This document shows positions 3,897-18,275 of a stretch of DNA of 20,000 bases, one piece after another (the first letter of the stretch is position 1; each line of letters begins with the position of its first letter). Source of the stretch: an uncultured virus (IMG/VR IMGVR_UViG_3300009466_000002) (lineage: Duplodnaviria; Heunggongvirae; Uroviricota; Caudoviricetes). The notes under the pieces are model-generated. The model saw only the letters and a program-made list of their open reading frames with translations. It ran no database searches and was not told the DNA's origin. Location: the IMG/VR virus record IMGVR_UViG_3300009466_000002. One strand, given 5' to 3'. Position numbers and translations under genes: made by a program.

Positions 3897-4294
3897 CAGA
3901 TGGGTCCTCCAACGACGCGGAAGGTGCCTTCGATGGATTGGCGCAGGTCCTTCCGGTGGAAGGAATCCATGGCCAGGTCGAAGACGAGCTCGAAACGTCC
4001 TCGGTAACCGTTGATCACGGCTTCGGCTTGGGAGCCGTTGGTGATGCGGGGGTCGAGGAGTGCCGGGCTGAGCAGACGGCCTCGGCAGGAGTAGGTGGTG
4101 GCGTCGGTGCCGGACTCGGGCTTCCAGGTGGGGGCCTGGAGGGTGAGGGCGGCGAGGTATTCGACGATCTCGGTGGATTGGGTGGCGTTGCCGGTGGTGG
4201 GATCTGTGGTGGCCAGACCGGTGCCGACTTCAAACGCGAGCTGGGCGTTACCCCAGGGGGCGTAGGCGGCAAGGGTGGTGGCCGAGATCGCCAT
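3896..4294 (-). CDS. Putative head closure / head-tail joining protein
   Basis: 132-aa beta-rich ORF coupled between the adaptor and gp10-like genes. Function is inferred from synteny. Confidence 0.55.
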   Translation of the reverse strand: MAISATTLAAYAPWGNAQLAFEVGTGLATTDPTTGNATQSTEIVEYLAALTLQAPTWKPESGTDATTYSCRGRLLSPALLDPRITNGSQAEAVINGYRGRFELVFDLAMDSFHRKDLRQSIEGTFRVVGGPI

Positions 4295-4296
4295 GG

Positions 4297-4605
4297 CTAC
4301 AGCGCGAATCCACTGAGGGGCCTGCTATCGAGCAGGCGCTTGTACTCCTGGCCGTAGAGGGTTGAGTCGAAGCCCGAGCCTGTGGGGGCGCCGGACTTGG
4401 TCTCGATCTGGAGGCCGATCTGCATGGTGCGGGTGGCCAGCAGGTGGGCAGCGAGGTAGCTGACGGCTTCGGTGTGGACGGTCCCCCAGGTTTCGGAGGG
4501 CGTGGACCGGCCCGCCTCGGCGAGAGTTCCTTCTACGACCGAGAGCGATTGCTCGCCGAACTCGGGGAAGCGGAGGAGGAACTCAGCGCTCGAGGGGACT
4601 GCCAT
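4297..4605 (-). CDS. Head-tail adaptor, DUF4054-like
   Basis: The pattern FLLRFPEF...YLAAHLL...STLYGQEY matches DUF4054-type adaptors that accompany DUF2184 capsids. Confidence 0.8.
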   Translation of the reverse strand: MAVPSSAEFLLRFPEFGEQSLSVVEGTLAEAGRSTPSETWGTVHTEAVSYLAAHLLATRTMQIGLQIETKSGAPTGSGFDSTLYGQEYKRLLDSRPLSGFAL

Positions 4606-5018
4606 TAGCCGTTACCTTCGGTGATGGCGCTGATGCGCTTGCCGATGGCGTTCTTCACGCGGATGCGGGAGTCCTTTGCATCCCAGAGGCGGAGTTGCTC
4701 GGTGTCGAAGCTGTCCTCGATCAGGCGCAGGGCGTCTTGAAGGGGGATGTCCGCGAGGGACTTGTTGGCTTCGGCGGGAGCTGCTTTGGCCTCGGTCACG
4801 TCCTCGGTTTCGATGCGAAGGGCACCGAGCTTGAGGAGGTTTTTGACCACGTCGTAGTCCTTGATCCGGGCCCAGACGTCCTCGGGGAAGTCACGGGTGA
4901 CACCCGAGGAGAGCTGGATGCTGTCGGTCAGGCCGCCGCCGTTGACGAACGAGAAACCGATGGAGCACTCCTTGTCCATCGGGGGGTTTTCAAGTTCAGG
5001 GCGGTAAACGATGATCAT
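4605..5018 (-). CDS. Hypothetical protein downstream of the major capsid gene
   Basis: 137-aa ORF with high-GC3 codon usage, coupled to the adaptor gene. The helical C-terminus is ...LRLWDAKDSRIRVKNAIGKRI. Confidence 0.7.
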   Translation of the reverse strand: MIIVYRPELENPPMDKECSIGFSFVNGGGLTDSIQLSSGVTRDFPEDVWARIKDYDVVKNLLKLGALRIETEDVTEAKAAPAEANKSLADIPLQDALRLIEDSFDTEQLRLWDAKDSRIRVKNAIGKRISAITEGNG

Positions 5019-5060
5019 GACTGAGTGAAGAGATTGTGCTGACCCATTCTGACTGGGTTA

Positions 5061-5086
5061 GAAAAGGCGAAAAGTTACGCCTTTTC
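5061..5086 (-). terminator. Stem-loop over the capsid stop codon (possible terminator or mRNA stabiliser)
   Basis: Perfect 9-bp inverted repeat GAAAAGGCG (5061-5069) / CGCCTTTTC (5078-5086), with the capsid TAA inside the 8-nt loop. Confidence 0.55.
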
Positions 5087-5992
5087 GAGCACCAGTGCGC
5101 TCTTGGGGTAGTAGAGCGAGAGGCCACCGATGCGTGCGTGAGCAGCAACGGTGAACTCGAGGGCCTGGCGCAGGGGAGGCAGGAACTCCAGAGCCTGGGG
5201 GATGTGCAGTTGCAGCTTGTCGGGGCTGCGGTCGTACACCACGATCCGGTCTTTGGACAGCGTGCCGCCGGACTTGCCTGCTTCCAGCTCGTTGATCGGC
5301 TCGATGGCCTGGATCATCGGGTTGGTGCGCAGGAAGAACTCCATCACCGTGGTGTCCGAGGTGGTCGAACGGGGGGTGGTGGAGATGATGCGGTACACGT
5401 TGTAGGGCACCAGCATCGTGTTGGGCATCTCCTTCATGTTGGAGTTCTGAACGAGGCGGGTGGGTGCCTCGTTCAGAAGGGCCAGCATCTCGTCGGTGGT
5501 GACACCGGCGGTGTCGAACCACTTGTCGGGGACAAGCTTGTCGACTTGATCGTTGTTGAAGAAGCCCTTCATGCCGGAGGGGGCGTCGCCGAAGTAGGCG
5601 ATCTCCTGCACTTTCTCCTCGTAAGCGCGACGGACGGCGTTGGCCCGGCGCTGCTCGAGGTTCATGCCGGGCACCATGGCGGCGGCACGGGTTTCTTGGA
5701 TGGTGTAGGCGAAGGAGGCACCCAGCGAGCGAATCGGGTGGGTGACTTCCTTGCGCAGGACGTCAGCGCGGGGCAGGTCCTGGGCTTTGTCGCCGATGAC
5801 CTTCATCGAGCCTTGCTTGTCGAAGACTCGGTAGGTGTAGGAATCAGCGCCGTTGCCGACCTCGGAGGAGATGGGGATCAGGCTGCTGTACTTGATGTCG
5901 GCGTACTCGACCTCGAAGGTGCGAGCCAGGATGGTTTCCAGCTCGCGGGCGAGAAAGATGCCGACCTCGTCGTTACGGATTTCGGTGGTCAT
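5075..5992 (-). CDS. Major capsid protein, DUF2184-type (HK97 fold)
   Basis: Likely start is ATG 5992 (MTTEIRNDEVGIFLARELE). Motifs DLPRAD, YTIQE..AA, IAYFGD...GFFN, PNTMLVP and GGLSLYYP are typical of DUF2184 capsids. It follows the protease and decoration genes. Confidence 0.9.
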   Translation of the reverse strand: MTTEIRNDEVGIFLARELETILARTFEVEYADIKYSSLIPISSEVGNGADSYTYRVFDKQGSMKVIGDKAQDLPRADVLRKEVTHPIRSLGASFAYTIQETRAAAMVPGMNLEQRRANAVRRAYEEKVQEIAYFGDAPSGMKGFFNNDQVDKLVPDKWFDTAGVTTDEMLALLNEAPTRLVQNSNMKEMPNTMLVPYNVYRIISTTPRSTTSDTTVMEFFLRTNPMIQAIEPINELEAGKSGGTLSKDRIVVYDRSPDKLQLHIPQALEFLPPLRQALEFTVAAHARIGGLSLYYPKSALVLEKA

Positions 5993-6009
5993 GGGAGGAA
6001 GCTCCGTGA

Positions 6010-6621
6010 TCAAGTGTCGGCGGAGTAGGTCATGCCGGGGATGTCAATCTCCAGCAGAACCAGGCCGGCGGCGGTGGTTTCAGACAGCCAACGAGCGCCG
6101 GTGATGGCGACGGTCTTGTTGGCAACAGCGGTCTTGGTGAAGCGACCGAGGAAGGCGCCGGTGACGGTGCCGGAGTGGTCAGCGTTGTAGAAGCGGACCG
6201 CGTCGCCGAGGGCGATGGCGGTGGCGCTGTACACCCAGATCACACCTTTGGAGACCACGTTGACGGTCTCGGTGTTGGGATAGCCGTAGCGGCCATCGCT
6301 GTACACCGGGGTGGGGTTGGGGGTGTAGGTGGAGCCGAGGCTTGCGCCTTCGAGCACCTGGGAGCTGACGGCGAGGCCCTGGATCAGGGTCGCGTCCTCG
6401 GCGATCTTCACCGCGAGAGCGTCATTGCTGGTGGGGCTGTTGTCGGTCTGGACCAGCACGCCATAGGGGATGGCGGCGCCGGATTGGTTGCGGTAGCTGC
6501 GGCAGACGTATGCCTGCAGGTCAGCCAGCATGCCCTCGTGACCGGCGACTTCGCGCAGCGGGTAGCTGCCTTGGGCGCCGGAGGGGTTGGCGACGGTGGT
6601 GGCGGTAAAAGTAACGGCCAT
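6010..6621 (-). CDS. Capsid decoration/cement protein
   Basis: 203 aa between scaffold and capsid, with an AAGGAG RBS. Motifs AIPYGVLV...VNVVSKGVIWV...GDAV resemble cement proteins of DUF2184 phages. Confidence 0.75.
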   Translation of the reverse strand: MAVTFTATTVANPSGAQGSYPLREVAGHEGMLADLQAYVCRSYRNQSGAAIPYGVLVQTDNSPTSNDALAVKIAEDATLIQGLAVSSQVLEGASLGSTYTPNPTPVYSDGRYGYPNTETVNVVSKGVIWVYSATAIALGDAVRFYNADHSGTVTGAFLGRFTKTAVANKTVAITGARWLSETTAAGLVLLEIDIPGMTYSADT

Positions 6622-6633
6622 GGAAGGAACTCC

Positions 6634-7899
6634 TTACTTAGTGGCGGTGAGGGGGCGCTTCCAGGCATCCGCTTGCCGTGCTCGGTAGGAGTCCACCGGG
6701 GAAGCGGAACCGCGACCGGCGCCTTTGAGGGCGTCGCGCAGGGAAGTGGTGCTGTCGGCGCGATCTTCCTTGGTCTCGGGCTCTTCGCCTTCGGCCTCGG
6801 GAGCGTCACCTTCGGCCTCGTCGGCTTTGTCCTCGTCGTCAGCGCGGGCGCTGAGGATGCCGTCCACGACGCCTTGGATGTAGGCGGGGGAGGCGTCTTC
6901 GCGAGGAGCGGAACCGGTGAGGTTCTCGAAGGCTTGGGTGTAGAGCGCGTCATCGTCGACGCCGTCGAACTTGAAGTCCTCGGCGAAGGCGGGGGCGAGG
7001 CGCTGGAGGGTCGTCAGGCGAGCAGCGACGAGCTGGTCGAGCTCGGCGGTGTCGATGCGGGCGGCGCCGGACTCGAGCTCGGTGACGCGCTCGTCGAGAG
7101 CGTCGGCTCGGCCTTCAGCGGCCTCTTTGTCGTAGGCGAGGGCGTCGATCTCTTCCTGTTGGGCGTCGAGCTTTTTGGTGAGCTCGTCGCGCTCGGTGGT
7201 CACAGATTTCAGCTGGCGCTCCATGTCCCGTGCGAAGGACTGGACCGCGCTAGCTGCTTCTGCGGGCAGATCGATCTCCAGGCCGTCGAGTTTGACGGTG
7301 GCCATAACGGGAGATGCAGTTGTACAGGGCTGGAGCGCCGGATCGATGGCGACGGCGTCGGCCGCGTCCATGCGATCCATGAGAAGGCGTACCTCCGGGC
7401 CAGCCCGGCCACGGGGCACGATGGCGATGTGGTTTACCCGGATGTTGCGTTGGACACCGGCGTACTCTTCGCCCTCGGGTGTTAATCCGGGGGTGGGGTC
7501 GAAATCGACCTTGTAGCCAGCGGACACCTCAGTGGCGTCTTTGCGTTTGATCTTCTCGATGGCGTCTTGGTCAGTGACGACCAGAGCGACTTCGACGAAT
7601 CCGTCGTTGTACCGAACTTGACTACCGGAGTAGCCGACTTGGTACTGCTTGGTGTTCGCGGCGTCGAGAAGAACCGGGGGGTGGCCCCACGTCGCGGGTT
7701 TCATACCGAACGTGGTGAGGGAATCAGGGTTGCTGACTTCCTCGGGTGGGCGGTATTCCCGGACTTGGGATCCATCTGCGCGGCGGTAGAGCTGAGTGCC
7801 CGTCCGCGCTGCACGACACCACACTCGGAGGTAACCCTCGTCGGTGGTTTCGCTGCCTGTGATAGGCGCGAAGTCGTAGCGAGAAACAGATGTTTCCAT
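6634..7899 (-). CDS. DUF2213 prohead protease fused to a coiled-coil scaffold
   Basis: N-terminal TDEGYL...ARTGTQLY...EYRPPEEV...T.GHP...EVSAGY...QRNIRVNHIAIVPRGRAG is the DUF2213 signature. The C-terminal half is acidic and coiled-coil. Confidence 0.9.
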   Translation of the reverse strand: METSVSRYDFAPITGSETTDEGYLRVWCRAARTGTQLYRRADGSQVREYRPPEEVSNPDSLTTFGMKPATWGHPPVLLDAANTKQYQVGYSGSQVRYNDGFVEVALVVTDQDAIEKIKRKDATEVSAGYKVDFDPTPGLTPEGEEYAGVQRNIRVNHIAIVPRGRAGPEVRLLMDRMDAADAVAIDPALQPCTTASPVMATVKLDGLEIDLPAEAASAVQSFARDMERQLKSVTTERDELTKKLDAQQEEIDALAYDKEAAEGRADALDERVTELESGAARIDTAELDQLVAARLTTLQRLAPAFAEDFKFDGVDDDALYTQAFENLTGSAPREDASPAYIQGVVDGILSARADDEDKADEAEGDAPEAEGEEPETKEDRADSTTSLRDALKGAGRGSASPVDSYRARQADAWKRPLTATK

Positions 7900-7961: not shown

Positions 7962-8177
7962 GTGGCCATTCACAGGCAGTTGGCGCTGTGTCGTCGTATT
8001 AGAGGCTTAAGGGAGTCGAGTGGGCTCACACAAATGCAGGTTGCAGAGACACTTTGTGTGAGTCAGGCGGCGTACAGCAGGCTGGAAAAGGGAGAGGTTG
8101 AGATTTCACTCTCAAAGTTGTTTGTTTTGGCTGAGCTCTATGGGATGTCGTTGCACAAGCTGATCGACGGGATTTAG
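7962..8177 (+). CDS. XRE/Cro-C1 family helix-turn-helix regulator
   Basis: RIRGLRESSGLTQMQVAETLCVSQAAYSRLEKGEVEISLSKLFVLAELYG is a classic HTH_3 pattern. Confidence 0.92.
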   Translation: MAIHRQLALCRRIRGLRESSGLTQMQVAETLCVSQAAYSRLEKGEVEISLSKLFVLAELYGMSLHKLIDGI

Positions 8178-8347
8178 GCGTTCCAGACTTCGGTGTGCCA
8201 TACAACGGCACCTTCGCCGATGAGGCGTTGGCGGATATCCGGGGCTTCGTGGACGGGGCAGAGCAGGGTCTGGGCGCCGGCGTGGTTCCAGAACCAGATG
8301 CGGGTGTAGGCGTGCTCGGGGAGCTTGGCCGGTTTCACGTCACTCAT
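8174..8347 (-). CDS. Small hypothetical protein (57 aa, MSDVKPAKLPEHAYTRIWFW...)
   Basis: The ATG at 8345-8347 overlaps the TGA of 8344..9189 (ATGA coupling). Confidence 0.65.
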   Translation of the reverse strand: MSDVKPAKLPEHAYTRIWFWNHAGAQTLLCPVHEAPDIRQRLIGEGAVVWHTEVWNA

Positions 8348-9189
8348 CGGCGACTGGTCTTGCCGGAGCACTTCCACTTGGCGCGGGAGAGGCACAGCGG
8401 CGTGTTGCGCTCGGCGCCGGAGCAGTTGTAGCCCTCGGATTTCATGTCGCCGAAGCTGCGGGCGCAGTAACGGTCGCCTTTGTCGGTGCCGGGGGCGATC
8501 TTGTAGCCCTTGGCGCCGTAGCGGACGGTGTTTTTGCGGCCGGTCTTGGGGTTGGTGACGGTTTTGGCGTATTTCTTGCCGTCCTCGGTGTCGCGGCGCA
8601 GGGGCGGCTGAAGCTGGACCGGGGCGTAGTGCTGGATGTAGTTGTCGCGACGGGGTTTGCGGTAGCCGGGCTCGTAGCGGCGGCGCAGCTTCTCCACCGT
8701 CAGGTTGTGGGTGCGCATGCCGCTGCGGAGTGATGCGCGGGTGGCTTTGCCGGCCTTGTACATGGCCCCGCCTACAGCGGTGGCGCGCTCGATCTCGGAT
8801 TGGGCGGCTTCGGCGATGGCACGCTCGGCTTCTTGGTTGGCGGTCTTGGCAGCGGTGCGCAGGCGCTCGGTCTTGGAGGGCGGGCGCATGTTGTTCAGGG
8901 CCTCGCCGCGGAAGCGCATTGAGGGTTTCGGAGCCGTGGCACGGTGGACGGCCGCGGTGATTCCGCGTTGGGCGGTGCGCTGAATTGCAGTGGGGCTGCC
9001 CAGGAGAGCCTTGCGGCTGCCTTTATTGAGGAGTACGGCACCGACAGCACCGGCGGTAAGGCCGGCGGCGATGGCTTTGCCTGTGGGGAAAGAGCCCTTT
9101 TGGCGGCAGGTTTTGCTCGCCGCGATGTGGCTTTGGCCACAAGGGCGGCCCTGGGCATCGAGGCGGAGAGTGGCGGGAGTTAAGGCCAC
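8344..9189 (-). CDS. Accessory head-region protein with Cys module, hydrophobic helix and basic Cys-containing C-terminal domain
   Basis: 281 aa. N-terminal RLDAQGRPCGQSHIAASKTC, then KAIAAGLTAGAVGAVLL. C-terminal domain KKYAKTV..PKTGRKNTVRYGAKGY...YCARS...WKC. Confidence 0.8.
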   Translation of the reverse strand: MALTPATLRLDAQGRPCGQSHIAASKTCRQKGSFPTGKAIAAGLTAGAVGAVLLNKGSRKALLGSPTAIQRTAQRGITAAVHRATAPKPSMRFRGEALNNMRPPSKTERLRTAAKTANQEAERAIAEAAQSEIERATAVGGAMYKAGKATRASLRSGMRTHNLTVEKLRRRYEPGYRKPRRDNYIQHYAPVQLQPPLRRDTEDGKKYAKTVTNPKTGRKNTVRYGAKGYKIAPGTDKGDRYCARSFGDMKSEGYNCSGAERNTPLCLSRAKWKCSGKTSRR

Positions 9190-9192
9190 AGC

Positions 9193-10191
9193 TCAGATCG
9201 CGAGTTGGTCGAGCTCGGGGGTGAAGCCGGCGGCGTAGACGGAGTCGCGGCGGCGACGGTTGGAGTTGGTCCAGACCTGGGTGCTATTGCGCTGGAGAAT
9301 CCGATCGATCTCACCGGCCTGTTTGATCGAGAGGTTCGTCAGCTCTTGTCGAGAAGCGCCTCCAGCTTTTGCTTTTTCGTACTCGGCTTTCCACTGTGGG
9401 TTCTTAGCGGCGATAGCGGTTTGCGCCTTTCTGCTGTTCTGCCTGTTGCGGACAAAGGCACGCCCCGCTCGATTGCCAATAGCTTCTCCAGCACCGCGAG
9501 CTGCACCGGTTGCCGCGCCGTAGAGAGCGCCAGCTCCAGCGCCAGCTGCTGCCTGAGCTAGGCCGGCTCCCGGCTTACCTGTAAGAGCACCAGCGATAAA
9601 ACCGCCGGCAGCACCCATGAGCGCGCCTTTAATAGCGCCGGACTTGGCTTCTGCTTTGGCGCGTCCCTTAACGCTGTAATTAGCGTTGGGATCGACTTTC
9701 TGCGCTGCCCCCTTGGTGCATTTTTCGCCCTCGGAGATGGCGCCGTTACCGCATTTGAGGTCAAGGCGCTCAGCGGCGTCGAGGCGGGCACGGATGTAGG
9801 TGCGACTGCGGTTTTGGATGCCGAGCTCGCAGGCGGTCAGGTACTCCTGAGGGGTGAGGGAGTCCATCTTCTTCATGTAGCCGCCGTCCTTCATGGACTT
9901 GCCGCAGCTGCCGTCGCATTTGCCTTTGCGGCCCTTGGACATGCAGCCGCACTCGGCATCCATGGGCTTTTTGCCGTACATACCGTCGGCAGCGGGCTTG
10001 GTGTTCTTGGCGCCCTTGGCACTGCGCTTACGGGAGTGGGACTTGGCACCGTCCATCTCTTCGCTGCCCATCTCCTCCTCTTCTTCGCCCTCGGGCTTGA
10101 TTTCGATCTCGATGGAGGGCTTGCTCTTGTCGGCGCGGCCTTCGCGGAGACCCTTCTCGTAAGCGGCGGACTTCTTAGAGGGGGTAGCCAT
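9193..10191 (-). CDS. Accessory head-region protein with Cys module and glycine-zipper segment
   Basis: 332 aa. Disordered charged N-terminus, then RLDLKCGNGAISEGEKC, then GALMGAAGGFIAGALTG...AAAGAGAGALYGAATG; it ends RRDSVYAAGFTPELDQLAI. Confidence 0.8.
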   Translation of the reverse strand: MATPSKKSAAYEKGLREGRADKSKPSIEIEIKPEGEEEEEMGSEEMDGAKSHSRKRSAKGAKNTKPAADGMYGKKPMDAECGCMSKGRKGKCDGSCGKSMKDGGYMKKMDSLTPQEYLTACELGIQNRSRTYIRARLDAAERLDLKCGNGAISEGEKCTKGAAQKVDPNANYSVKGRAKAEAKSGAIKGALMGAAGGFIAGALTGKPGAGLAQAAAGAGAGALYGAATGAARGAGEAIGNRAGRAFVRNRQNSRKAQTAIAAKNPQWKAEYEKAKAGGASRQELTNLSIKQAGEIDRILQRNSTQVWTNSNRRRRDSVYAAGFTPELDQLAI

Positions 10192-10266
10192 GGCGGGAGG
10201 GCGCGTCCGCCCGGTTCCTGATAGGGACAGTTTATGGGCGTGTCATAAAAGAGATAAATGTCGTCT

Positions 10267-11142
10267 CTACCCGACAGGCGTTGGGGCGAGTTGCTCGAAC
10301 ACCGCGGCGCGGTTGAGGTTGACGAGCTCGGGGGAGAGTCGAGCGACGGCGGCGCTCACTTCTTGGGTGTGGCGCTCACGTTGTCCTGCGTAGTCGGCGT
10401 CGATCGCAGCGAGATCGGCGTCCCACGGGGCGAGGTAGCAGCGGCACCGTGGATGACAAGGAGCTTTGACCTCGGCGCGTTTGTAGATCTGGCCCGCTCG
10501 GGGGGCGCAGATATCGCAGGACCGATCATCCGCTGTGGCGTACCACATACAAAGGTCGATGCCTTGTGTGGCGTAGTACGTGTTGGAGGCGTCGTTGTAG
10601 GCGCGCAGTGACTCCGTGCGGACGATGGCTTCGGCGCGGGCTTTGACGACGCCGAGGCGGGAGCGCATGTCCTGGATGATCGACGAAGTCGGGCGACCTT
10701 CGGCGACACCCTGGGCCACGATCTCGGCTGAGGTGGTGGCGAAGCGTTCGCCGTGTTTGCGCAGGTAGCCCTTGGATTGGGCGGCGGCTGCAGCGGTTGC
10801 TTCGAGGGGGATCGAAACGTCGATGCGGGGACGGCCGGGGCGCATTTGCTCGGTGAGGTTGGACGCGACCTCGATCCCGCGGGTGCCGGCCTCGCCAACG
10901 AGGTTGCGCAGGAGCGTGTCGTAGGCGTCGACGCGGTCGGGGCGGAACGCTGGCACAAGATTCCGGAACTCCTGCAGGAGAGCGAGGTTGCGCTGGGTGG
11001 GATCGACGTAGCCCGCGCGCATGTGGACCCGAGCTCGGCGCACCAGGCGGTTGAAGCTTTGGTCGAGGACGCGGTTCAGTAGGCGCAGCGTGCTGTCCTC
11101 GGTGGTGCGGAGCAGCAGGTTGTAGCGCTCAACGACGTCCAT
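10267..11142 (-). CDS. Minor head morphogenesis protein, MuF / SPP1 gp7 family
   Basis: RAEAIVRTES...W.ATADDRSCDIC....G.IY....PCHPRCRC is the Phage_Mu_F signature. Likely start is ATG 11142 (MDVVERYN). Confidence 0.92.
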   Translation of the reverse strand: MDVVERYNLLLRTTEDSTLRLLNRVLDQSFNRLVRRARVHMRAGYVDPTQRNLALLQEFRNLVPAFRPDRVDAYDTLLRNLVGEAGTRGIEVASNLTEQMRPGRPRIDVSIPLEATAAAAAQSKGYLRKHGERFATTSAEIVAQGVAEGRPTSSIIQDMRSRLGVVKARAEAIVRTESLRAYNDASNTYYATQGIDLCMWYATADDRSCDICAPRAGQIYKRAEVKAPCHPRCRCYLAPWDADLAAIDADYAGQRERHTQEVSAAVARLSPELVNLNRAAVFEQLAPTPVG

Positions 11143-13816
11143 GAAGGGCAGGGTGCGAAGGCTTAGCCCAGCCCGCAGCATCACCTCGGATTAGACCCGC
11201 CATGTACTCCATCTGCGCGTCAGGAATCTCCGTGAATTTGCCCTGGTTCTTCAGAGCCCACAAACGCTCGGTTTTCAGCCCTGGGATGGGTTTGAAGCCC
11301 ATGCCTTCATAGATCGATTTGCGCTTCCCGCCTTTACCATCCGCCTTGTGAGGTACGGCGAACATGACGGCATTCTCGGGGAGCATCTCCAGCTGCGCCT
11401 GATACATGGCCTTGGTGGTGCGGATCAGCTGTTTGGCTTGGGCACCGGGCATACCCCCTTTGGAGTCATAGCTGCTGTCGATGGTGAAGCCGAGGCCGTA
11501 CTGAGGGAACTTAGATACGTTCCCTTTGCGCTCAGCGCCGAAGGTTAGAAGGCTGTCACCTACAGAACCAACTGACATCTGAGTGCCATTGGGCATTTCC
11601 CAGGTTGAGAAGTTGTTTTTCACATCGACGGCTCGAATTTGCCCACCTTGAGCTTTGAGAGCCATATGGGCTGCGGCGTTTTTAGCGCCCCCAACGAGTT
11701 GACGTGCTTGGCCCTGGAAACGCTCGGGGATTTTGTCCAGACCCGCCTTCACTTGCGCGGACGACATGGCGTCGATGGTCTTTTTGCTGAGCGAAGGCAC
11801 CAAGGCTTGGCGCTGCTTGTAGGCGAGCAGGCCACCGACGGCTAAAGCAGCGCCAGCTGCGGCACCGGCGGCTAAAGCGACTTTCGCGGCAGTTTTGCCC
11901 TGGCCGCTCTCGGGAGCCGAAGCGCCTTGGCCCTTCCTGCACTCATGCGCCTTCGGGATGTGGGAGGCGCCGCAGGGCTTTCCCAGGCGTCCGCCCTCCT
12001 TGAAGTCGGCGCGGGCGGCGAGGTAGGTGGCGGTGCGGACGAGCTCGGGGGAGACGTCGTCTTCGTCGCCGCGGCGGGAGATGATCCGGTCCGCTTCGGC
12101 AGCGGCGGCTTCGGGAGAGAGACCGCCTTGGGTGAGGGTGCGGATCAGCTCAGCACGAGAGCGGAGCCGGCGACGAGCGGCGCGGGGTTGGCCGGCAGCG
12201 CTAGGTGCTGCTGGACGAGGAGTGGCTTCGCGGGGGGAGCGGACACGGACAGCGCCGGTGAAGCCGTACTCGGATTGGAGTAGGCGCATGGCGTCTGCGG
12301 TCGTGGTGATCGGCCGGCCGGCCAGCTCGGAAGCGGCGCTGAGGGCGAGGCGGTCGGTGATGGAGTAGGTGCTGCTTCGGGTGCCGGCAACGCGGGTGGC
12401 GAAGTAGGCGGTGCGAACCAGCTCGGCGTGGGCGTCGCCGGCAACAGGGCGAGTCAAACCCATCCGGCCTGAGAGATAGCGCGCTCGGGTGAGGTCGGCG
12501 GAGCCAAGGATCTCGCCGTAGCCACGTTGGCGGAGAGAGGGGTCAAGGGCGCTGGCGCCTGCGGTGTTGCGGGCGATGTCGCCGACTTCCTTGTAGAAGT
12601 CGTTAAAACCGCGAACCGTGCGGCCATACACCGTGTTGGCGTAGGCGGCGGGGCTGCGGGTAAGGACACCCTCGATGTGACCTTCGAGCTCGCGGCGGAT
12701 TGCAGGGGAGTAGCCGGCAGAGCCTCCGGTGCTGCGGACCACGCCGCGCATGAAGGGACCGAGATCAGCTTCGTTGATGGCTTCGCGACCACCGGAGCGG
12801 GAGACGCGGAAGCCTTGTTGTTTGGCCAGGGCGATGAGGTCACCACGCTCGGTTTCGACCCGGGCGGTGATGGCGTCTTTGATGGAGCGGGTGGTTAGGG
12901 CCTCGTCGCCGGTGAGTTGGAACTGACGGGCGAGGTGCTCCTCGGCGGTGGGGCGAGCGAAAACGCTGAACTTGGAGTTGCGGTCAGCGCCAACGCCGGA
13001 CTCGGCGATGCTGGAGGTCCAGAAGGCTTGGCGGTGCTTTTGGTTCCAGGTGTAGAAGTTGTCGGAGCCGGCTTCGCGGTCGATGCGGTTGGTGTCGACG
13101 ACGAGTTGGCCGGCGTTGTCGCGCAGTGGGGCGCGAGACAACATCGCTTCACCGCCGGTGCCGAGGGTGGCGCGCATGGCGTCGGGACCGGAGACGGCCT
13201 CGGTGGCGAAGCGGGAGGCGGCAGCGCCAACGGCACCCGACACAGCGCCGCGGGTACGGGCTCTCTGAGCCCCGACTAACGGCAGCGAGTCGAAGACTCG
13301 GCTGATGCCTGCACGGGTGGCGCTGTTGATGTTGGCGCCGAGGCCGTTCCGGTAGCCGAACGTGTTGTTCTTCATCAGGATCGCGTGGATCCCGAGGCCG
13401 CCGGTGACGACGGCTAGGCCAATACCGATGGCGCGGGTGCGGTCTTCGAGCTTCTTCTGGAGCTCTTTCTTCTGCTGGATGTTGCCCGGGGCGACTTTGA
13501 CAGCGCCGCGGATGATGGCGCGCTTGCCGCCCTCGACCTCAGAGAAGTTGCCGCGGACGATGCCGCGGGTGATGCGGGAGGCGCCGCGTTGGATGTTGGC
13601 GAGGCCGCCGAGGGGGTCGGTCTTGACGGCACGGAGATGAGGGTCAGTGCCTTGGCCCTTGAGGCGGCAGTCCCAACTCGGGGGGATGCAGCGGTTGCCG
13701 CAGCGGACGTTGGGCGGGTTGCACTGGACGTTGCGCGTGGTCTTGCGGGCGTCGAGGCGGGCCTTGGCGGCGAGGTAAGCCGCAGTCCGGAAGCCTTCGG
13801 GAGTGGTGTTGTTCAT
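11129..13816 (-). CDS. Large (895 aa) two-module accessory head-region protein
   Basis: Long ORF coupled to the portal stop. It has two copies of RTAxYLAA..RxD followed by a Cys motif and ..KGQG, two hydrophobic helices, and a possible GNAT-like C-terminal domain. Confidence 0.85.
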   Translation of the reverse strand: MNNTTPEGFRTAAYLAAKARLDARKTTRNVQCNPPNVRCGNRCIPPSWDCRLKGQGTDPHLRAVKTDPLGGLANIQRGASRITRGIVRGNFSEVEGGKRAIIRGAVKVAPGNIQQKKELQKKLEDRTRAIGIGLAVVTGGLGIHAILMKNNTFGYRNGLGANINSATRAGISRVFDSLPLVGAQRARTRGAVSGAVGAAASRFATEAVSGPDAMRATLGTGGEAMLSRAPLRDNAGQLVVDTNRIDREAGSDNFYTWNQKHRQAFWTSSIAESGVGADRNSKFSVFARPTAEEHLARQFQLTGDEALTTRSIKDAITARVETERGDLIALAKQQGFRVSRSGGREAINEADLGPFMRGVVRSTGGSAGYSPAIRRELEGHIEGVLTRSPAAYANTVYGRTVRGFNDFYKEVGDIARNTAGASALDPSLRQRGYGEILGSADLTRARYLSGRMGLTRPVAGDAHAELVRTAYFATRVAGTRSSTYSITDRLALSAASELAGRPITTTADAMRLLQSEYGFTGAVRVRSPREATPRPAAPSAAGQPRAARRRLRSRAELIRTLTQGGLSPEAAAAEADRIISRRGDEDDVSPELVRTATYLAARADFKEGGRLGKPCGASHIPKAHECRKGQGASAPESGQGKTAAKVALAAGAAAGAALAVGGLLAYKQRQALVPSLSKKTIDAMSSAQVKAGLDKIPERFQGQARQLVGGAKNAAAHMALKAQGGQIRAVDVKNNFSTWEMPNGTQMSVGSVGDSLLTFGAERKGNVSKFPQYGLGFTIDSSYDSKGGMPGAQAKQLIRTTKAMYQAQLEMLPENAVMFAVPHKADGKGGKRKSIYEGMGFKPIPGLKTERLWALKNQGKFTEIPDAQMEYMAGLIRGDAAGWAKPSHPALHGRR

Positions 13817-15657
13817 CAGTACTGCTCCCAGCCGGCGCGGAGGGCTTCGAGTTCACCCTCGGGGACAGGGGAGAGCCCTGCCACATTCTGTCGAGGGAAG
13901 AGGGCGACCAGTCCCTGTTTGGCCGCGCGCATCGAGGCGAAGCCGGTGACGTAGGGGCCATCGATTAGGGCACCGTCGGGGCCGTCGAACCGCGCTCGGT
14001 AGAGCTTGTACGCCTTGGTGCGATGGGGGCCGAAGACGGTGAGCGGCGCAGCAGCGCTGGAGTCGGTGCGTTGGCCGTCGGGGCCGACGAGGTGGCCGGC
14101 GCGGATGTCGCCCTCGGTGTGGGTGACGCGGATGCGGAGACCCTGGGCTTCGTAGAGGTCGAAGGTGTCGCTGCGCGGAGGCGTGTCGGGGAGGACCGGT
14201 TCGTCCTGTTCAGACGGCTGTGCTTCTTCGGGTGGCGGGGTCTGCAGCGCCTGGGCTTGGGCGGCGTAGCTCATCATCGAGCTCTGGAAGGAGGCGTCGG
14301 CCTGGGTAATGAGTTGCTCGGTGACCGCCTCGTTGAGCGTGGTGTCGATGCTGTACTCGGTGCCGCCGAAGCGGGCTTCGCGCACTTCGAGAGCATTAAG
14401 GACACCGAGGTTGATGTACTGCGCGTCGACCTGCGCTACTTGGAGACGTAGGGCGGCGCGCTCGGTGTCGGTCTCGGTGAAGACGCTGGGGAATTCGACG
14501 GCCCAGCTTTGTGGGGGGCGGCCGCGGGTTGGTCCTTCGCTCGAGACGAGGATGTACTGGAAGACTTCGGTGATCGCAGTGCGGAGGTAGACCTCCTGCC
14601 AGCGCTCGACGAGGGAGGCCCAGACGCGCTCCTCGAAGCGGCCCTCTTTGCCAAGGCCGCCGGGGCTGTCGCCCATCAGGATTGAGGCGGGCCAGCCGGT
14701 GGCGGCTTGGAGGTCCTTGACGAAGGGGTCGGTCGCTGAGGCGATGTTGCTCAGGGCACGGTTGAGGAACTGCAGGTCCTCCTCGACGTCGACAACCATG
14801 CCGCCGTAGACGCTGCGGCTGAGGTTGTTGGCTTCGAGGCGCTTGCGCAGGTCGCTCTCGTTGCCGGAGGCGACGCGGTTGAAGAGGCCGGGGATCTTGT
14901 GGACGAAGAGGTCGGAATCGGTGGTCATCGACTCCAGGCCGGCCATGGCGCTCTCGTAGCGCTTGAAGGATTCCCAGATCAGTTGGAGGACGGATTGGCC
15001 CCAGCCGGTGTTGCGAACGCGGACGTTCCAGGGCAGGTAGAGGCCGTCGAAGCGCGCGATGCGGGATGAGTGAATGCGCACATTGACATAGCTGCCCTGT
15101 TGATCGGAGGTCAGGCGCTGGGAGGTGGTGATCCGGTAGTGCGACGGCTTGGAGTAGTCGGTGATCGAGTAGTCCTCGGGGATCAGCTCGTGCCGCGACA
15201 GGGGGACGTAGCCGCGAATCGCGCGGATGCGGGCGAGGTCGACGGGTTCCTCAGGCTCGAGGCCGTCGTCGATCAGCAGGACGAGACCGGCACCGCCGTA
15301 GAGGCGCTGGAGCTTGACGACCTCGGAAAGCGCCTGGTGGAACTGGGTGTCTTTGAGGTACTCCTCGAAGCCGGCGATCAGATCGTTGGCCTGGGGTTCG
15401 TCATCGCCGCCGAGCTTGATCGTGGTGCGGTGGCGCAGGATCTCGTCGGAAATGGCGTCGACGTAGCGACGGGGGATGCCGTGGGTATAGAGCGCTTCGA
15501 GTTCGCTCTCGGCTAGGAAGGTTCGAGAGCTGACAACGGTGCTAACTGTTTTGTCCTTGGCAGGTGTACCCATGCCGGTGAGGACGTTAACAAGTGCGCC
15601 ATCATTTCTAATACTACTTTTATCCTTCCGGAATGTATCGGTAGGAACATGCTCCAC
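13816..15657 (-). CDS. Portal protein, DUF1073-type, with C-terminal extension domain
   Basis: Motifs NVLTGMGT..DK, RLYGGAGLVL, IHSSRI.RFDG, GWGQSVLQ, P.SILMG.SPGGL and Y...GVL...EVR. It lies downstream of terL and upstream of MuF. Confidence 0.9.
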   Translation of the reverse strand: MEHVPTDTFRKDKSSIRNDGALVNVLTGMGTPAKDKTVSTVVSSRTFLAESELEALYTHGIPRRYVDAISDEILRHRTTIKLGGDDEPQANDLIAGFEEYLKDTQFHQALSEVVKLQRLYGGAGLVLLIDDGLEPEEPVDLARIRAIRGYVPLSRHELIPEDYSITDYSKPSHYRITTSQRLTSDQQGSYVNVRIHSSRIARFDGLYLPWNVRVRNTGWGQSVLQLIWESFKRYESAMAGLESMTTDSDLFVHKIPGLFNRVASGNESDLRKRLEANNLSRSVYGGMVVDVEEDLQFLNRALSNIASATDPFVKDLQAATGWPASILMGDSPGGLGKEGRFEERVWASLVERWQEVYLRTAITEVFQYILVSSEGPTRGRPPQSWAVEFPSVFTETDTERAALRLQVAQVDAQYINLGVLNALEVREARFGGTEYSIDTTLNEAVTEQLITQADASFQSSMMSYAAQAQALQTPPPEEAQPSEQDEPVLPDTPPRSDTFDLYEAQGLRIRVTHTEGDIRAGHLVGPDGQRTDSSAAAPLTVFGPHRTKAYKLYRARFDGPDGALIDGPYVTGFASMRAAKQGLVALFPRQNVAGLSPVPEGELEALRAGWEQY

Positions 15658-16224: not shown

Positions 16225-17706
16225 TCAGATGTGAGCGAAGAAGCTGGCGGTGTTGGGCGTCTCTGGGATGGCGTGGCAGGCGAAGGCCAGGGCCATGACG
16301 CAGTCGTCGTGGGCGCCGGAGGCGGCTTCGCGGTTGCCGGATTCCTTCTGCTGGAAGGCGCGGAGTTCGTCGCCAATGACGCCCGCAGGGAAGATCAGTT
16401 CGTCGTGCTCGAGCAGGAAGAGGATGCGGTCGGTTGCCACGACCTTGCTCGGGCGACTGGTGCTGAAGGTTTCGATAGCGTAGTTGGGTAAGACGGTGGC
16501 CAGCGCTTCGGCGATGACGGCGCCCATCGCTTGCTTCTCCACGATTACCCGCTGCGGAAGGTAATCCTCAATCAGGGCTTTTACATGGCGCAAGCTGTAG
16601 TCGGTGCTCTTGCCGTTCTCGTGATACATCCCTACGACTTCGTAGGGGCGCTCGGTGATGTCCAGGACGATCGCTGTGAAGTAGTCGTTGCCGCCGGCGT
16701 TGGGGTCGACGCCGATGACGTAGGTGCGGCCGATGGAGCCGCACTCGCGCCAGTGGCCGCGGGAGGCGCGGCGGACCAGGGCGGATGGGTAGATCTGGGT
16801 GTCGGTGGCGCCAAAGGCCAGCTCGTATTCGGAGTCCCATGCGGCCTGGGTCATCCGGCGCGACTCGCGGGTCGTCTTGGCCCAGTTCGGGTTGGCGCCG
16901 TAGACGGGGTGCTGGGAGTAGTGGATCGCGACGCGGTTCCAGGAGTCGTTGACCTGGGCGAGGCGGGTGTTGAGCGCGCGGATGCGGCGGCCCTTGACGT
17001 AGTCGTACCAGTCGGGTGGGGTGCCTTGGTGCCAGAGCTGGCCGAACCAGTCGAGCTCGGTGTCGGGTGTCGAGGTGACGATGACCTTGGCGCGCTCGCC
17101 CACCATGGACAACGTGGGCATGGCACCGCGGTAGATCTCGGCGGCACCGTCGAGGAAGGCGCCTTCGTCCATGAAGAGGACGGAGCAGCTGGGGATGCCG
17201 CGGGCGGCGCGGGGTGAGGCGGGCAGGAAATACAAAGTGCCTCGGCCTTCGATGGCGATCTGGGTGTTGGAGTCGGTGAGGTAGCGGATTGACTCGCCCT
17301 CGATGGAGTTCGCCATGGCGCGCACGCGGCGGCCGAGCTCGGAGGCGTCTTGTTGGGTCTTCGAGAAGATCACTGCGGCGAAGCCGCGCTCGGTGAGGGC
17401 GCGGCAGAGCAGGTAGGAGCAGACCGTCTCGGAGGCGCCCATCTGGCGCGACTTGTTGATGATCGTGTTGGGGTGGGCGTTGATCGAGTTGACGAGGTCG
17501 ATCTGGTAGGCGTACGGGTCGAAGGGGGCCACGGTGCCGGCCGTGCGGATCCAGGTGCGGCGGGCGAACGACGGCCAGTCCTCGACGCCCGGGAGCTTGG
17601 TGACGCGGTGGGTGGGGTCGAAGTTGGCGGAGCGGGCTTTGCGTTTTGCCAGTTCGAGGCGGAGGCGGTCCGCCCGGCGTTGGAGCTGGGCGAGGGAGGC
17701 GGTCAT
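16225..17706 (-). CDS. terL: Terminase large subunit
   Basis: Walker A-like KSRQMGASE, Walker B LFMDEGAF, motif III VTSTP, and RNase H-fold nuclease motifs IGVDPNAGGNDY and HDDCVMALA. Confidence 0.95.
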   Translation of the reverse strand: MTASLAQLQRRADRLRLELAKRKARSANFDPTHRVTKLPGVEDWPSFARRTWIRTAGTVAPFDPYAYQIDLVNSINAHPNTIINKSRQMGASETVCSYLLCRALTERGFAAVIFSKTQQDASELGRRVRAMANSIEGESIRYLTDSNTQIAIEGRGTLYFLPASPRAARGIPSCSVLFMDEGAFLDGAAEIYRGAMPTLSMVGERAKVIVTSTPDTELDWFGQLWHQGTPPDWYDYVKGRRIRALNTRLAQVNDSWNRVAIHYSQHPVYGANPNWAKTTRESRRMTQAAWDSEYELAFGATDTQIYPSALVRRASRGHWRECGSIGRTYVIGVDPNAGGNDYFTAIVLDITERPYEVVGMYHENGKSTDYSLRHVKALIEDYLPQRVIVEKQAMGAVIAEALATVLPNYAIETFSTSRPSKVVATDRILFLLEHDELIFPAGVIGDELRAFQQKESGNREAASGAHDDCVMALAFACHAIPETPNTASFFAHI

Positions 17707-18188
17707 GGCGCCGGGGCGTCCTCGGGGTCAGCGGATTTCAGGAGGTCCAGGTCGCCGTCGGTGTCGTCCTCGGGGGCGGCTTCGCTGGGGATCTGGAGGA
17801 GGCCGTAGATCTGGGATTCCAGGTCGGAGACCGTGCGCTCGAGCATCTTGCGCTCCTGGTAGGCGGCGGCGCCGTTGAGGAGGGCGCGGGAGGCGGCGAT
17901 GCGGTCGGAGGCGCGGGCGTTCTCGTCGTGCATGATCTCCGTGAGCGTGGCGATGGCGTCGGGCATCAGCGCCAGGCCCTTGGACTCGGAGACGTCGATC
18001 AGCTCCTGTTGGAGGGCGTAGATGGCGCGTTGGACGACGGGCTTTTTGCGCCAGTTGTAGAGGGCACGCTCGGAGATGCCGAGGGCGCGGGAGACTTCGC
18101 GGCAGCTTTTGCCCCGGGCGAGGAGCTCAGCGGCCATCCGTTCGTTCTCGCGGAGGCCGTCGATCATGGAGGCGTTGCGGGGCGGCAT
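17703..18188 (-). CDS. terS: Terminase small subunit (N-terminal HTH)
   Basis: Likely start ATG 18188 (MPPRNAS). HTH: AAELLARGKSCREVSRALGISERALYNWRK. Oligomerisation-type segment: AIATLTEIM...DRIAASRALL. It overlaps the terL start (ATGA). Confidence 0.85.
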   Translation of the reverse strand: MPPRNASMIDGLRENERMAAELLARGKSCREVSRALGISERALYNWRKKPVVQRAIYALQQELIDVSESKGLALMPDAIATLTEIMHDENARASDRIAASRALLNGAAAYQERKMLERTVSDLESQIYGLLQIPSEAAPEDDTDGDLDLLKSADPEDAPAP

Positions 18189-18275
18189 GGGTTCCGAAAG
18201 GTGCCGAGATATGCCGAAGTTGCACCCATAACCTAACGAGAAAAGGTGTAAGAGAAACACCAGATCCGGAACGGG

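What the first reader, a model, noticed from the sequence alone, without database searches (positions are those of the whole stretch)
8344..13816. Family of modular head-region proteins sharing an RxD-CGxxxIxxxxxC module plus hydrophobic helix: candidate capsid-cargo/ejection system
Seen in sequence: three otherwise unrelated ORFs around the MuF gene carry four copies of one motif. (1) The 895-aa N-terminus, about 13649-13789: RTAAYLAAKARLD..CNPPNVRCGNRCIPPSWDCRLKGQG. (2) 895-aa internal, 11924-12037: RTATYLAARADFKEGGRLGKPCGASHIPKAHECRKGQG. (3) The 332-aa protein, 9709-9768: RLDLKCGNGAISEGEKCTKG, preceded by RTYIRARLDAAE. (4) The 281-aa protein, about 9094-9165: RLDAQGRPCGQSHIAASKTCRQKG. Cys spacing (CG-x3-I-x5-C) is identical in all four. 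Each copy is followed by a Gly/Ala hydrophobic segment (AIGIGLAVVTGGLGIHAIL; VALAAGAAAGAALAVGGLLAY; GALMGAAGGFIAGALTG; AIAAGLTAGAVGAVLL) and then an unrelated domain. Established knowledge: MuF-linked loci and phage polyvalent proteins carry effectors that are packaged in the head and delivered with the DNA. Inference: the Cys motif is a shared packaging or addressing tag (disulfide or metal-binding), and the downstream parts are interchangeable membrane-targeted cargos. I know of no named family for this module.
Basis: partly seen in the sequence, partly recalled or inferred. Interest (0 to 1): 0.88.

Follow-up and report, generated by a model that had tools for sequence, protein, structure and literature searches.

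The report
Modular cargo proteins in phage head
Three genes in the head-building block of an uncultured, cyanophage-like virus encode swap-able "cargo" proteins whose units each start with the same short leader, a two-cysteine hairpin and usually a greasy helix, a header that also marks hundreds of multi-enzyme proteins that other phages probably inject into their hosts.

Summary
The window has exactly four CG-x3-I-x5-C motifs, all in the three named ORFs (0.0014 expected). Each has an R-x-D upstream and a Gly/Ala-rich uncharged segment downstream. The window is a siphophage-like head module: TerS, TerL, portal, 895 aa, MuF, 332 aa, 281 aa, DUF2213 protease-scaffold, cement, DUF2184 capsid. 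In 67 related viral contigs the capsid stays 84-98% identical, while the portal-to-protease slot varies in gene number, length and module order. C-terminal domains are swapped: GNAT-like here, LRAT/NlpC-P60 or protein kinase elsewhere. A profile of the motif finds 683 protein clusters. These include classic polyvalent proteins (ART-PolyVal, InPase, NUDIX, LPD1) with up to seven hairpins, one before each domain. No Pfam or PHROG family covers it. R-x-D marks module starts and is enriched in cargo, scaffold, portal and capsid. The R-L-D leader was seen only in contigs with a DUF2213 protease. Best reading (about 0.5): these are head-packaged, injected effector polyproteins. The leader/R-x-D is the targeting and prohead-protease processing signal. 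The hairpin plus helix heads each delivered unit. All function is inferred.

The parts
13816..15657 (-). portal protein (Phage_portal_3), with a C-terminal extension carrying three R-x-D
   Evidence: Pfam E 6.3e-56; R-x-D sites; C-terminus read
11129..13816 (-). 895-aa cargo protein (P0001): two leader-hairpin-helix cassettes, a ~430-aa conserved central domain and a C-terminal GNAT-like domain
13751..13801 (-). leader 1 of P0001 (residues 6-22, helix ending in R-L-D)
   Evidence: nearly invariant in 46 aligned homologues
13667..13702 (-). Cys hairpin 1 (four-Cys variant; an extra Cys 7 residues upstream and one at loop position 4)
13373..13432 (-). hydrophobic uncharged segment 1 (residues 129-148)
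12005..12073 (-). internal leader 2 of P0001 (residues 582-604), flanked by R-G-D and R-A-D
11939..11974 (-). Cys hairpin 2 (C-H-H-C variant)
11819..11881 (-). hydrophobic Gly/Ala-rich segment 2 (residues 646-666)
11180..11797 (-). C-terminal domain of P0001 (about residues 674-879), GNAT-like fold, ending at R-G-D
   Evidence: AF2 pLDDT 64-97 by 10-residue block, mostly 82-97; Foldseek and VIA top hits nearly all GNAT
10267..11184 (-). stand-alone MuF (SPP1 gp7-type) minor head protein
   Evidence: Pfam Phage_Mu_F E 6.6e-14, phrog_115 E 1e-26
9193..10191 (-). 332-aa cargo protein (P0002): charged and Cys-rich N-half, leader, hairpin, Gly-zipper-like C-half
9760..9858 (-). leader of P0002 (residues 112-144) with two tandem R-L-D
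9718..9753 (-). Cys hairpin 3 (two-Cys 'LKCG' variant)
9577..9627 (-). hydrophobic Gly/Ala-rich segment 3 (residues 189-205)
   Evidence: weak Gly-zipper_YMGG match E 0.027, below cut-off
8344..9189 (-). 281-aa cargo protein (P0003): 11-residue leader, hairpin, helix, helical middle part and a C-terminal small Cys module
9157..9189 (-). N-terminal leader of P0003 (residues 1-11, ending R-L-D)
   Evidence: 99 of 120 listed homologues have R-x-D in their first 13 residues
9106..9141 (-). Cys hairpin 4
9028..9075 (-). hydrophobic segment 4 (residues 39-54)
8347..8589 (-). C-terminal Cys-rich module of P0003 (residues 201-281), preceded by R-R-D; found as a stand-alone gene in another phage
6634..7899 (-). 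DUF2213 prohead protease fused to a scaffold-like C-half; 9 R-x-D against 3.3 expected
   Evidence: Pfam E 4.6e-43, phrog_530 E 7.9e-87
5075..6013 (-). major capsid protein (DUF2184) with R-N-D at residues 13-15

Best explanation
The 895-, 332- and 281-aa ORFs are split members of the phage 'polyvalent protein' class. They are arrays of effector and accessory domains encoded in a hypervariable slot of the head module, probably packaged in the capsid and expelled with the DNA. Each unit begins with one header: a short helix-forming leader ending in R-x-D, a 12-residue loop closed by two invariant cysteines (CG-x3-I-x5-C), and usually a Gly/Ala-rich hydrophobic helix. Proposed mechanism, all steps inferred: (1) The leader takes the precursor into the prohead, as the T4 capsid-targeting sequence does. 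(2) The DUF2213 protease cuts after Asp of R-x-D, removing leaders and splitting polyproteins into units while it also trims its own scaffold half, the portal tail and the capsid N-terminus. (3) Each released unit carries the Cys hairpin (a disulfide or metal clasp) and a helix, and on ejection these anchor the effector at the host membrane or join an ejection conduit. In the window the effector is a GNAT-like acyltransferase; in relatives it is an LRAT/NlpC-P60 enzyme or a kinase. Shown here: modularity, slot hypervariability, spread of the module and the R-x-D statistics. Not shown: packaging, cleavage and membrane insertion.
For: Head-module setting. The slot is hypervariable. In 34 loci holding both MuF and the protease there are 2-6 cargo ORFs and the interval spans 2152-7758 nt. 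Median identity to the window is 41% for p895 against 91% for the capsid and 80% for the protease. Modules are shuffled, and adjacent genes are fused with the leader kept internally. C-terminal enzymes are swapped: LRAT/NlpC-P60, kinases and GNAT-like in the window. The module profile finds 683 clusters at E<=1e-3, with up to 7 copies per protein. They carry ART-PolyVal, InPase, LPD1, NUDIX, lipase, DnaJ and kinase domains. 186 of 219 cargo-slot ORFs carry the hairpin. R-x-D: 408 observed against 153 expected in the 120 listed P0003 homologues. It precedes 77 of 79 hairpins and 50 of 52 'CW' modules. Observed/expected ratios are 1.92 in cargo, 3.09 in protease-scaffold, 1.79 in portal and 1.86 in capsid, against 0.18 in TerL, 0 in cement and 0.12-0.18 in two tail genes. 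Internal BLAST alignment starts fall within 5 residues of an R-x-D in 27% of cases against 9% at random. P1' is A/S/T in both cargo and scaffold. S-CBS4 (protease 38% identical) keeps R-x-D at the protease/scaffold junction, at two scaffold sites and at the capsid N-terminus. Its portal C-terminus carries a DUF5872-like module right after R-G-D. The R-L-D leader occurs in contigs with a DUF2213 protease (L141, L146 group, L147, L164, L168, L185, L188, L198). It is absent from hairpins in 4 of 4 checked records without DUF2213. Precedents: T4 internal proteins and Alt sit in the scaffolding core (passages of PMC9958956). SPN3US ejection proteins lose N-terminal propeptides at a 3-residue protease motif (passages of PMC10052503).
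Against: There are no virion proteomics, no isolate and no known host, and every relative is metagenomic. Alignment ends are not enriched at R-x-D (8.7% against 7.2%), so R-x-D travels with the downstream module. It could therefore be part of each module rather than a scissile linker. Only 47 of 110 C-terminal Cys modules have R-x-D within 8 residues. [RK]-x-D enrichment in the scaffold halves of distant DUF2213 phages is mixed: present in phage grams (16 against 5.9) and phiEt88 (10 against 5.5), absent in RHEph04 (1 against 5.1) and LBR48 (4 against 5.5). The counts come from related sequences and are not independent. The leader/protease co-occurrence rests on a few lineages, and the records without DUF2213 are 24-100% complete. 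AF2 gives the header pLDDT below 50, so nothing structural supports a hairpin, a metal site or a membrane helix. Half of the hairpins in the representatives have no hydrophobic segment.
Confidence: 0.5

Rival explanations
1. One reading: the Cys hairpin itself is the packaging/address tag, binding MuF, portal, scaffold or capsid. The downstream parts are the cargo, and R-x-D is only part of the tag.
For: C, G, I and C are invariant or nearly so across 48 diverse copies. 186 of 219 cargo-slot ORFs have the hairpin. It sits at the head of each unit, and it is found in structural or packaging blocks in 5 of 5 contexts outside the family that were looked at.
Against: It is repeated before every domain within one polypeptide, up to 7 times, where one tag would do. 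It occurs without leader or helix in ART-PolyVal proteins of phages lacking DUF2213. In one 315-kb record it also follows signal-peptide-like N-termini in small proteins. 33 of 219 slot ORFs lack it, though many of these are truncated.
Confidence: 0.2
2. Structural ejectosome reading: the hairpin plus glycine-zipper helix units are primarily membrane-inserting or pore-forming ejection proteins that build the DNA conduit, like T7 gp14-16 or P22 gp7/16/20. The attached enzymes are secondary passengers.
For: A hydrophobic Gly/Ala-rich segment follows 160 of 206 family hairpins within 100 aa. There is a weak Gly-zipper_YMGG match. JGI names P0002 relatives YcfJ or SlyB. A long helical middle part is predicted in P0003.
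Against: The phage looks like a siphovirus: its nearest isolate S-CBS4 has a tape measure gene, and such proteins usually provide the conduit. S-CBS4 lacks the whole array yet is viable. Copy number and content vary from 2 to 6 genes, which is unlike an essential machine. Many hairpins have no helix.
Confidence: 0.15
3. R-x-D and the hairpin are not processing signals at all. They are a conserved structural cap and linker, or a junction kept by recombination, that happens to be shared by shuffled modules. The proteins act as intact polypeptides.
For: Alignment starts coincide with the R of R-x-D while ends do not. There is no experimental cleavage data. Enrichment in distant DUF2213 scaffolds is mixed.
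Against: R-x-D precedes unrelated module types: hairpin, CW and DUF5872. The middle residue is free, so no nucleotide junction is conserved. R-x-D is enriched in the scaffold, portal tail and capsid N-terminus of the same phages and depleted in terminase, cement and tail proteins. Sites are conserved in S-CBS4 at 38% identity.
Confidence: 0.15

Closest known systems
Polyvalent proteins of phages and conjugative elements (Iyer et al. 2017, PMC5512222; passages seen)
   Same: They are multi-domain effector arrays encoded among late or structural genes next to MuF and portal, and are thought to be packaged and delivered on invasion. Hairpin-bearing relatives carry the class's signature domains: ART-PolyVal, InPase, LPD1, NUDIX and kinases. 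One hits DarB-like and minor-head PHROGs.
   Different: Here the array is split over three or more genes around a separate MuF. Units carry a leader/R-x-D, a Cys hairpin and often a hydrophobic helix. The paper proposes processing by a zincin-like MPTase, and none is present in the window. The words cysteine, linker and transmembrane occur 0 times in its main text, so this header appears not to be described there.
T4 internal proteins IPI-III and Alt with the capsid targeting sequence and gp21 protease; phiKZ/SPN3US ejection proteins and gp175/gp245
   Same: These are non-essential proteins loaded into the scaffolding core and injected with the DNA. N-terminal propeptides are removed by the prohead protease at a three-residue motif with fixed P3 and an acidic P1. 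Several motif copies occur per propeptide, and the protease trims itself. The T4 motif L/I-x-E and the roughly 10-residue targeting sequence are recalled, not seen in a call.
   Different: The protease family differs (DUF2213). The putative motif is R-x-D (basic P3, Asp P1). Nothing is shown experimentally. The Cys hairpin and hydrophobic helix have no counterpart that I know of in T4.
MuF polymorphic toxins of temperate phages (Jamet et al. 2017; recalled, not read here)
   Same: Variable C-terminal toxin or effector domains linked to the MuF head protein locus.
   Different: In that family MuF is fused to the toxin. In the window MuF is a separate 305-aa gene, and no Phage_Mu_F match was found in P0001-P0003 or in the 27 representatives scanned.
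Phage P1 Dar antirestriction system (DarA, DarB, Hdf, DdrA/B)
   Same: Several large accessory proteins are packaged in the head, some are proteolytically processed, and they are delivered to protect or help the incoming DNA (passages quoted).
   Different: There is no sequence relation to the window proteins, and it belongs to a different head type.
Glycine-zipper membrane proteins (Gly-zipper_YMGG, YcfJ, SlyB)
   Same: They have Gly/Ala-rich small-xxx-small hydrophobic segments. JGI labels some P0002 relatives YcfJ or SlyB.
   Different: The Pfam match is below the cut-off (14.6 against 28.9 bits), there is no lipoprotein signal, and the setting is a phage head.

Membership tests
Polyvalent proteins (Iyer et al. 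2017) | Two or more unrelated effector or enzymatic domains in one polypeptide | tested here: inconclusive
   Window P0001 has one recognisable enzyme-like domain (GNAT-like) plus an unassigned ~430-aa domain. Homologues add LRAT and/or a kinase. Distant hairpin proteins have 2-8 Pfam domains.
Polyvalent proteins (Iyer et al. 2017) | Encoded by a phage or mobile element among late/structural genes, typically with MuF or portal | tested here: met
   The genes lie between portal and protease around MuF, with the same order in the related IMG/VR loci that span it.
Polyvalent proteins (Iyer et al. 2017) | Packaged in the virion and delivered into the host | not testable with these tools
   No isolate and no proteomics; all relatives are metagenomic.
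T4-type capsid-targeted internal proteins | Short N-terminal leader ending in the prohead protease motif | tested here: inconclusive
   99 of 120 P0003 homologues have R-x-D within the first 13 residues after a conserved x-L-T-P leader. That R-x-D is a protease motif is only inferred.
T4-type capsid-targeted internal proteins | Cleavage by the prohead protease and presence in the mature head | not testable with these tools
   Needs virion mass spectrometry or an in vitro protease assay.
MuF polymorphic toxins | MuF domain fused N-terminally to the variable toxin domain | tested here: not met
   No Phage_Mu_F match in P0001-P0003; MuF is the separate gene at 10267-11184.
GNAT acyltransferases (C-terminal domain of P0001) | GNAT fold | tested here: inconclusive
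   The AF2 domain has pLDDT 64-97 by 10-residue block, mostly 82-97. All Foldseek rows shown are GNAT or acetyl-CoA-binding entries, but the best E is 6.4e-3. VIA Z is 6.7-4.9 (rmsd 3.4 A over 128 residues for the top row) and nearly all rows are GNAT, yet Z is under 8. No Pfam match. The acetyl-CoA motif was not verified.
Pfam Gly-zipper_YMGG | Score at or above the gathering cut-off | tested here: not met
   P0002 184-230 scores 14.6 bits against a cut-off of 28.9, E 0.027.
DUF5872 (PF19197) | Pfam match in the window proteins | tested here: not met
   None in P0001-P0003. It is present in homologues such as P0017 (E 1.9e-9) as one of the shuffled modules.

The most novel reading that the evidence does not exclude
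The CG-x3-I-x5-C hairpin is a so far undescribed, widespread 'unit header' of phage-delivered effectors. It would be a redox- or metal-locked clasp placed before every domain of polyvalent proteins, marking where polyproteins are cut or handed over for delivery. In the DUF2213/DUF2184 phages it is coupled to an R-x-D site that reveals the unknown specificity of the DUF2213 prohead protease family (basic P3, Asp P1, caspase-like and unlike the Glu-specific T4/phiKZ enzymes). The result would be membrane-anchored enzymes released inside the host from a hypervariable, plug-and-play cargo slot.
Probability: 0.3. Interest if true: 0.85.

Novelty: new variant of a known kind. Interest (0 to 1): 0.66.

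Why it matters
Phage-packaged effectors are among the first phage proteins a host meets, yet outside T4, P1 and the giant phages little is known about how cargo is chosen, processed and released. This locus provides three things. First, it gives a simple sequence rule (leader, R-x-D, Cys hairpin) that flags candidate cargo units in at least 683 protein clusters with no Pfam or PHROG name. Second, it gives a testable prediction of the cleavage motif of DUF2213 proteases; relatives of this protease were found in 1286 phage records. Third, it shows a natural swap-in slot carrying acyltransferase-, phospholipase/peptidase- and kinase-like domains, which is of interest for host-takeover biology and for engineering protein delivery by phage capsids.

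Tried and rejected
- Complex prediction of the protease-scaffold (alignment A4) with the leader-hairpin module (A1) gave no answer: score 0.00, mark 0.32, controls not run. It is not used either way.
- AF2 of P0003 (mean pLDDT 55.8) and of P0001 580-895 left the leader, hairpin and helix below pLDDT 50.
- The ESM Atlas search with P0003 1-60 gave no usable hit.
- tblastn of P0001 against 50,697 phage records found no match at 1e-3. blastn of 8000-14000 found only a 119-nt match to Roseobacter phage CRP-212.
- phmmer of P0001 against PDB sequences found 0 matches at E<=1.
- A literature search for 'DUF2213' gave 7 papers, none on cleavage specificity judging by titles and abstract starts. 'DUF5872' gave 1 paper. 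A T1-like capsid-processing search gave 1 irrelevant paper.
- The E217 paper says only that capsid residues 1-65 are unseen.
- Sf11 was pursued as a possible experimental N-terminus. My DUF2213 profile does not match gp41, gp39 or gp40, and the coverage start at residue 40 follows Lys, a tryptic cut. It is irrelevant.
- A simple 'DUF2213 implies RxD right next to the hairpin' rule failed for the L146 group, where the R-L-D lies 25-50 residues upstream.
- The degenerate DNA scan returned 58 stretches. Nine of the 47 loci analysed had no profile-supported hairpin and are taken as chance matches.
The window's own assembly is not held, and the nearest record, G001, is an 11.7-kb fragment identical over the overlap.

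Full report
**What is in the window**

All relevant genes are on the minus strand and form a head module:
- small terminase, 17703-18260
- large terminase, 16225-17706
- portal (Phage_portal_3, E 6.3e-56), 13816-15657
- an 895-aa ORF (P0001), 11129-13816
- MuF (Phage_Mu_F, E 6.6e-14), 10267-11184
- a 332-aa ORF (P0002), 9193-10191
- a 281-aa ORF (P0003), 8344-9189
- a DUF2213 protease with a scaffold-like C-half, 6634-7899
- a cement protein, 6010-6621
- a DUF2184 major capsid protein, 5075-6013
- connector and tail genes downstream

The window's own assembly is not held. An 11.7-kb IMG/VR fragment is identical over the overlap. The nearest isolate by protease is Synechococcus siphophage S-CBS4, at 38% identity over all 421 residues. 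One relative carries the NCBI label 'MAG: Cyanophage'.

The expectation is 0.0014 from residue shuffles and 0.097 from nucleotide shuffles. Each copy has R-x-D upstream and an uncharged Gly/Ala-rich segment downstream. The three proteins align with each other only over these module regions. None matches Pfam or PHROGs.

**A hypervariable cargo slot**

P0003 has 370 relatives, P0001 has 228 and P0002 has 401, all from metagenomes. Sixty-seven IMG/VR loci show the same gene order. In the 34 loci that hold both MuF and the protease, 2-6 cargo ORFs lie between them and the interval runs from 2152 to 7758 nt. Median identity to the window is 91% for the capsid and 80% for the protease, but 41% for the p895 family.

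Relatives of P0003 are mosaics of small modules in different orders:
- the hairpin plus helix
- a 'CW' module
- DUF5872
- a C-terminal Cys module that stands alone as an 81-aa gene in Roseobacter phage CRP-212

Neighbouring genes are sometimes fused, with the leader kept inside the fusion.

P0001 relatives share the first ~660 residues and then differ. They carry LRAT/NlpC-P60, a protein kinase, both behind further headers, or the window's own domain. AF2 models the window's domain well (pLDDT 64-97 by 10-residue block, mostly 82-97). Both fold searches return almost only GNAT acyltransferases, though with weak scores: best Foldseek E 6.4e-3, and VIA Z 6.7 with rmsd 3.4 A over 128 residues.

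**The module is much wider than this phage family**

A profile of 48 copies (C, G and C invariant; R, D and I at 90% or more) finds 683 clusters at E<=1e-3 among 1.84 billion representatives. There are up to 7 copies per protein, and proteins reach 3278 aa.

Pfam scans of 27 of these proteins show ART-PolyVal, InPase, LPD1, NUDIX, PolyA_pol/HD, ADP-ribosyltransferases, LRAT, kinases, lipases/esterases, DnaJ, histidine phosphatase and an ATLF-like peptidase. This is the domain repertoire of polyvalent proteins (PMC5512222). In these proteins one hairpin precedes each domain. That paper's main text does not contain the words cysteine, linker or transmembrane, and no Pfam model covers the hairpin positions.

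Contexts examined outside the family are all in structural or packaging blocks, but not in the portal-to-protease interval:
- L073 lies after a phrog_328 protease and phrog_1005 capsid, before tail genes.
- L141 lies after a DUF2213 protease, cement, capsid and connector genes.
- L147 lies upstream of a DUF2213 protease.
- L160 lies near TerL and hits DarB-like and minor-head PHROGs.
- L162 lies near TerL and tail fibres.

**R-x-D**

In the 120 listed P0003 relatives, R-x-D occurs 408 times against 153 expected. It lies in the first 13 residues of 99 of 120. It precedes 77 of 79 hairpins (those with at least 14 residues upstream) and 50 of 52 CW modules, but only 47 of 110 C-terminal Cys modules.

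Across the 67 loci the observed/expected ratios are:
- cargo 1.92
- protease-scaffold 3.09 (K-x-D 2.94)
- portal 1.79
- capsid 1.86
- TerL 0.18
- cement 0
- two tail genes 0.12 and 0.18

Internal BLAST alignment starts lie within 5 residues of an R-x-D in 27% of cases against 9% at random. Alignment ends do not (8.7% against 7.2%). P1' is mostly A, S or T, plus L in the LKCG type.

S-CBS4 keeps R-x-D at the protease/scaffold junction, at two scaffold sites and at the capsid N-terminus. Its portal C-terminus carries a DUF5872-like module straight after R-G-D. This places that module type inside the capsid, given the established knowledge that portal C-termini face the interior.

The R-L-D leader, sometimes 25-50 residues upstream of the hairpin, was found in contigs with a DUF2213 protease. 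It was absent from hairpins in the four records checked that lack DUF2213. These records span few lineages and are partly incomplete.

In four distant DUF2213 isolates, [RK]-x-D enrichment in the protease-scaffold protein is present in two (grams, phiEt88) and absent in two (RHEph04, LBR48).

**The hairpin itself**

Of 368 hairpins in the representatives, 200 have only the two Cys. In 85 a Cys at loop position 4 is always accompanied by a Cys 5-9 residues upstream (85 of 85, and never one without the other). Another 24 have His at positions 4 and 9. This coupling fits a second disulfide or a four-ligand metal site, but it does not decide between them. A hydrophobic segment follows 117 of 206 family hairpins within 50 aa, 160 of 206 within 100 aa, and 182 of 369 hairpins in the representatives.

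**Interpretation**

The cargo-family idea is supported. The claim that the Cys loop is the address tag is not.

The most economical model is that these are polyvalent-type, head-packaged effectors. The leader/R-x-D would be the targeting and processing signal of the DUF2213 protease, by analogy with T4 internal proteins and SPN3US ejection proteins. The hairpin, with or without the helix, would be the retained header of each delivered unit. Packaging, cleavage, metal or disulfide state and membrane insertion are all inference, and I put the whole chain at about 0.5.

Supplementary files of the papers cited were not consulted. The polyvalent-protein paper's external alignment files could hold a description of this motif that I did not see.

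Noticed in passing
window 7962-8177 (+): A 71-aa HTH_3/XRE-type regulator (Pfam E 1.6e-13) lies on the opposite strand between the cargo genes and the protease. S-CBS4 has an annotated 'transcriptional repressor' at the equivalent place, also antisense to the head genes.
   Followed up: partly
window 8174-8395 (-): A 73-aa ORF overlaps the 3' end of the 281-aa gene in another frame. Its start resembles the start of the extra ~500-aa hairpin-bearing cargo ORFs that overlap the same gene end in other loci (e.g. L038, L040, L063). In the window it has no hairpin and looks like a remnant. The recurrent overlap could also mean a frameshift link between the two genes.
   Followed up: partly
L072 (S-CBS4) 4113-5993: The S-CBS4 portal protein ends in a DUF5872-like module directly after R-G-D, the same module that is shuffled among P0003 relatives.
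   Followed up: partly
representatives P0245-P0390: There is perfect coupling between a Cys at hairpin position 4 and an extra Cys 5-9 residues upstream (85 of 85). A C-H-H-C variant occurs in 24 of 368.
   Followed up: yes
L152 (record G005, 315 kb, CheckV 100%): Two small ORFs (200 and 158 aa) carry the hairpin immediately after a signal-peptide-like hydrophobic N-terminus. This suggests that the hairpin can be extracytoplasmic in some proteins.
   Followed up: no
L201 (Rhizobium phage RHEph04) 402-3378: The MuF-to-protease slot of this distant DUF2213/DUF2184 phage also holds extra genes, including a 548-aa protein annotated lysophospholipase L1-like esterase and a DUF6011 protein. The slot may therefore be a general cargo site. 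LBR48 has a LysM protein there.
   Followed up: partly
window 9880-10050 (-), P0002 residues ~48-105: The N-half of the 332-aa protein has a Glu run followed by a Lys/Gly/Cys-rich stretch with six Cys in about 20 residues. It is conserved as the constant half of 401 relatives and is unexplained.
   Followed up: no
L071 (Roseobacter phage CRP-212) 8889-9134: The C-terminal Cys module of P0003 exists as a stand-alone 81-aa gene (gp45) among small genes next to the terminase of an unrelated marine phage (75.6% nucleotide identity over 119 nt).
   Followed up: partly
L202 (Escherichia phage grams) 3450-4562: The scaffold half of this T1-like DUF2213 protein has 10 K-x-D against 3.2 expected, mostly followed by A, G or S. 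This is a possible K-x-D version of the same motif in Drexlerviridae.
   Followed up: partly
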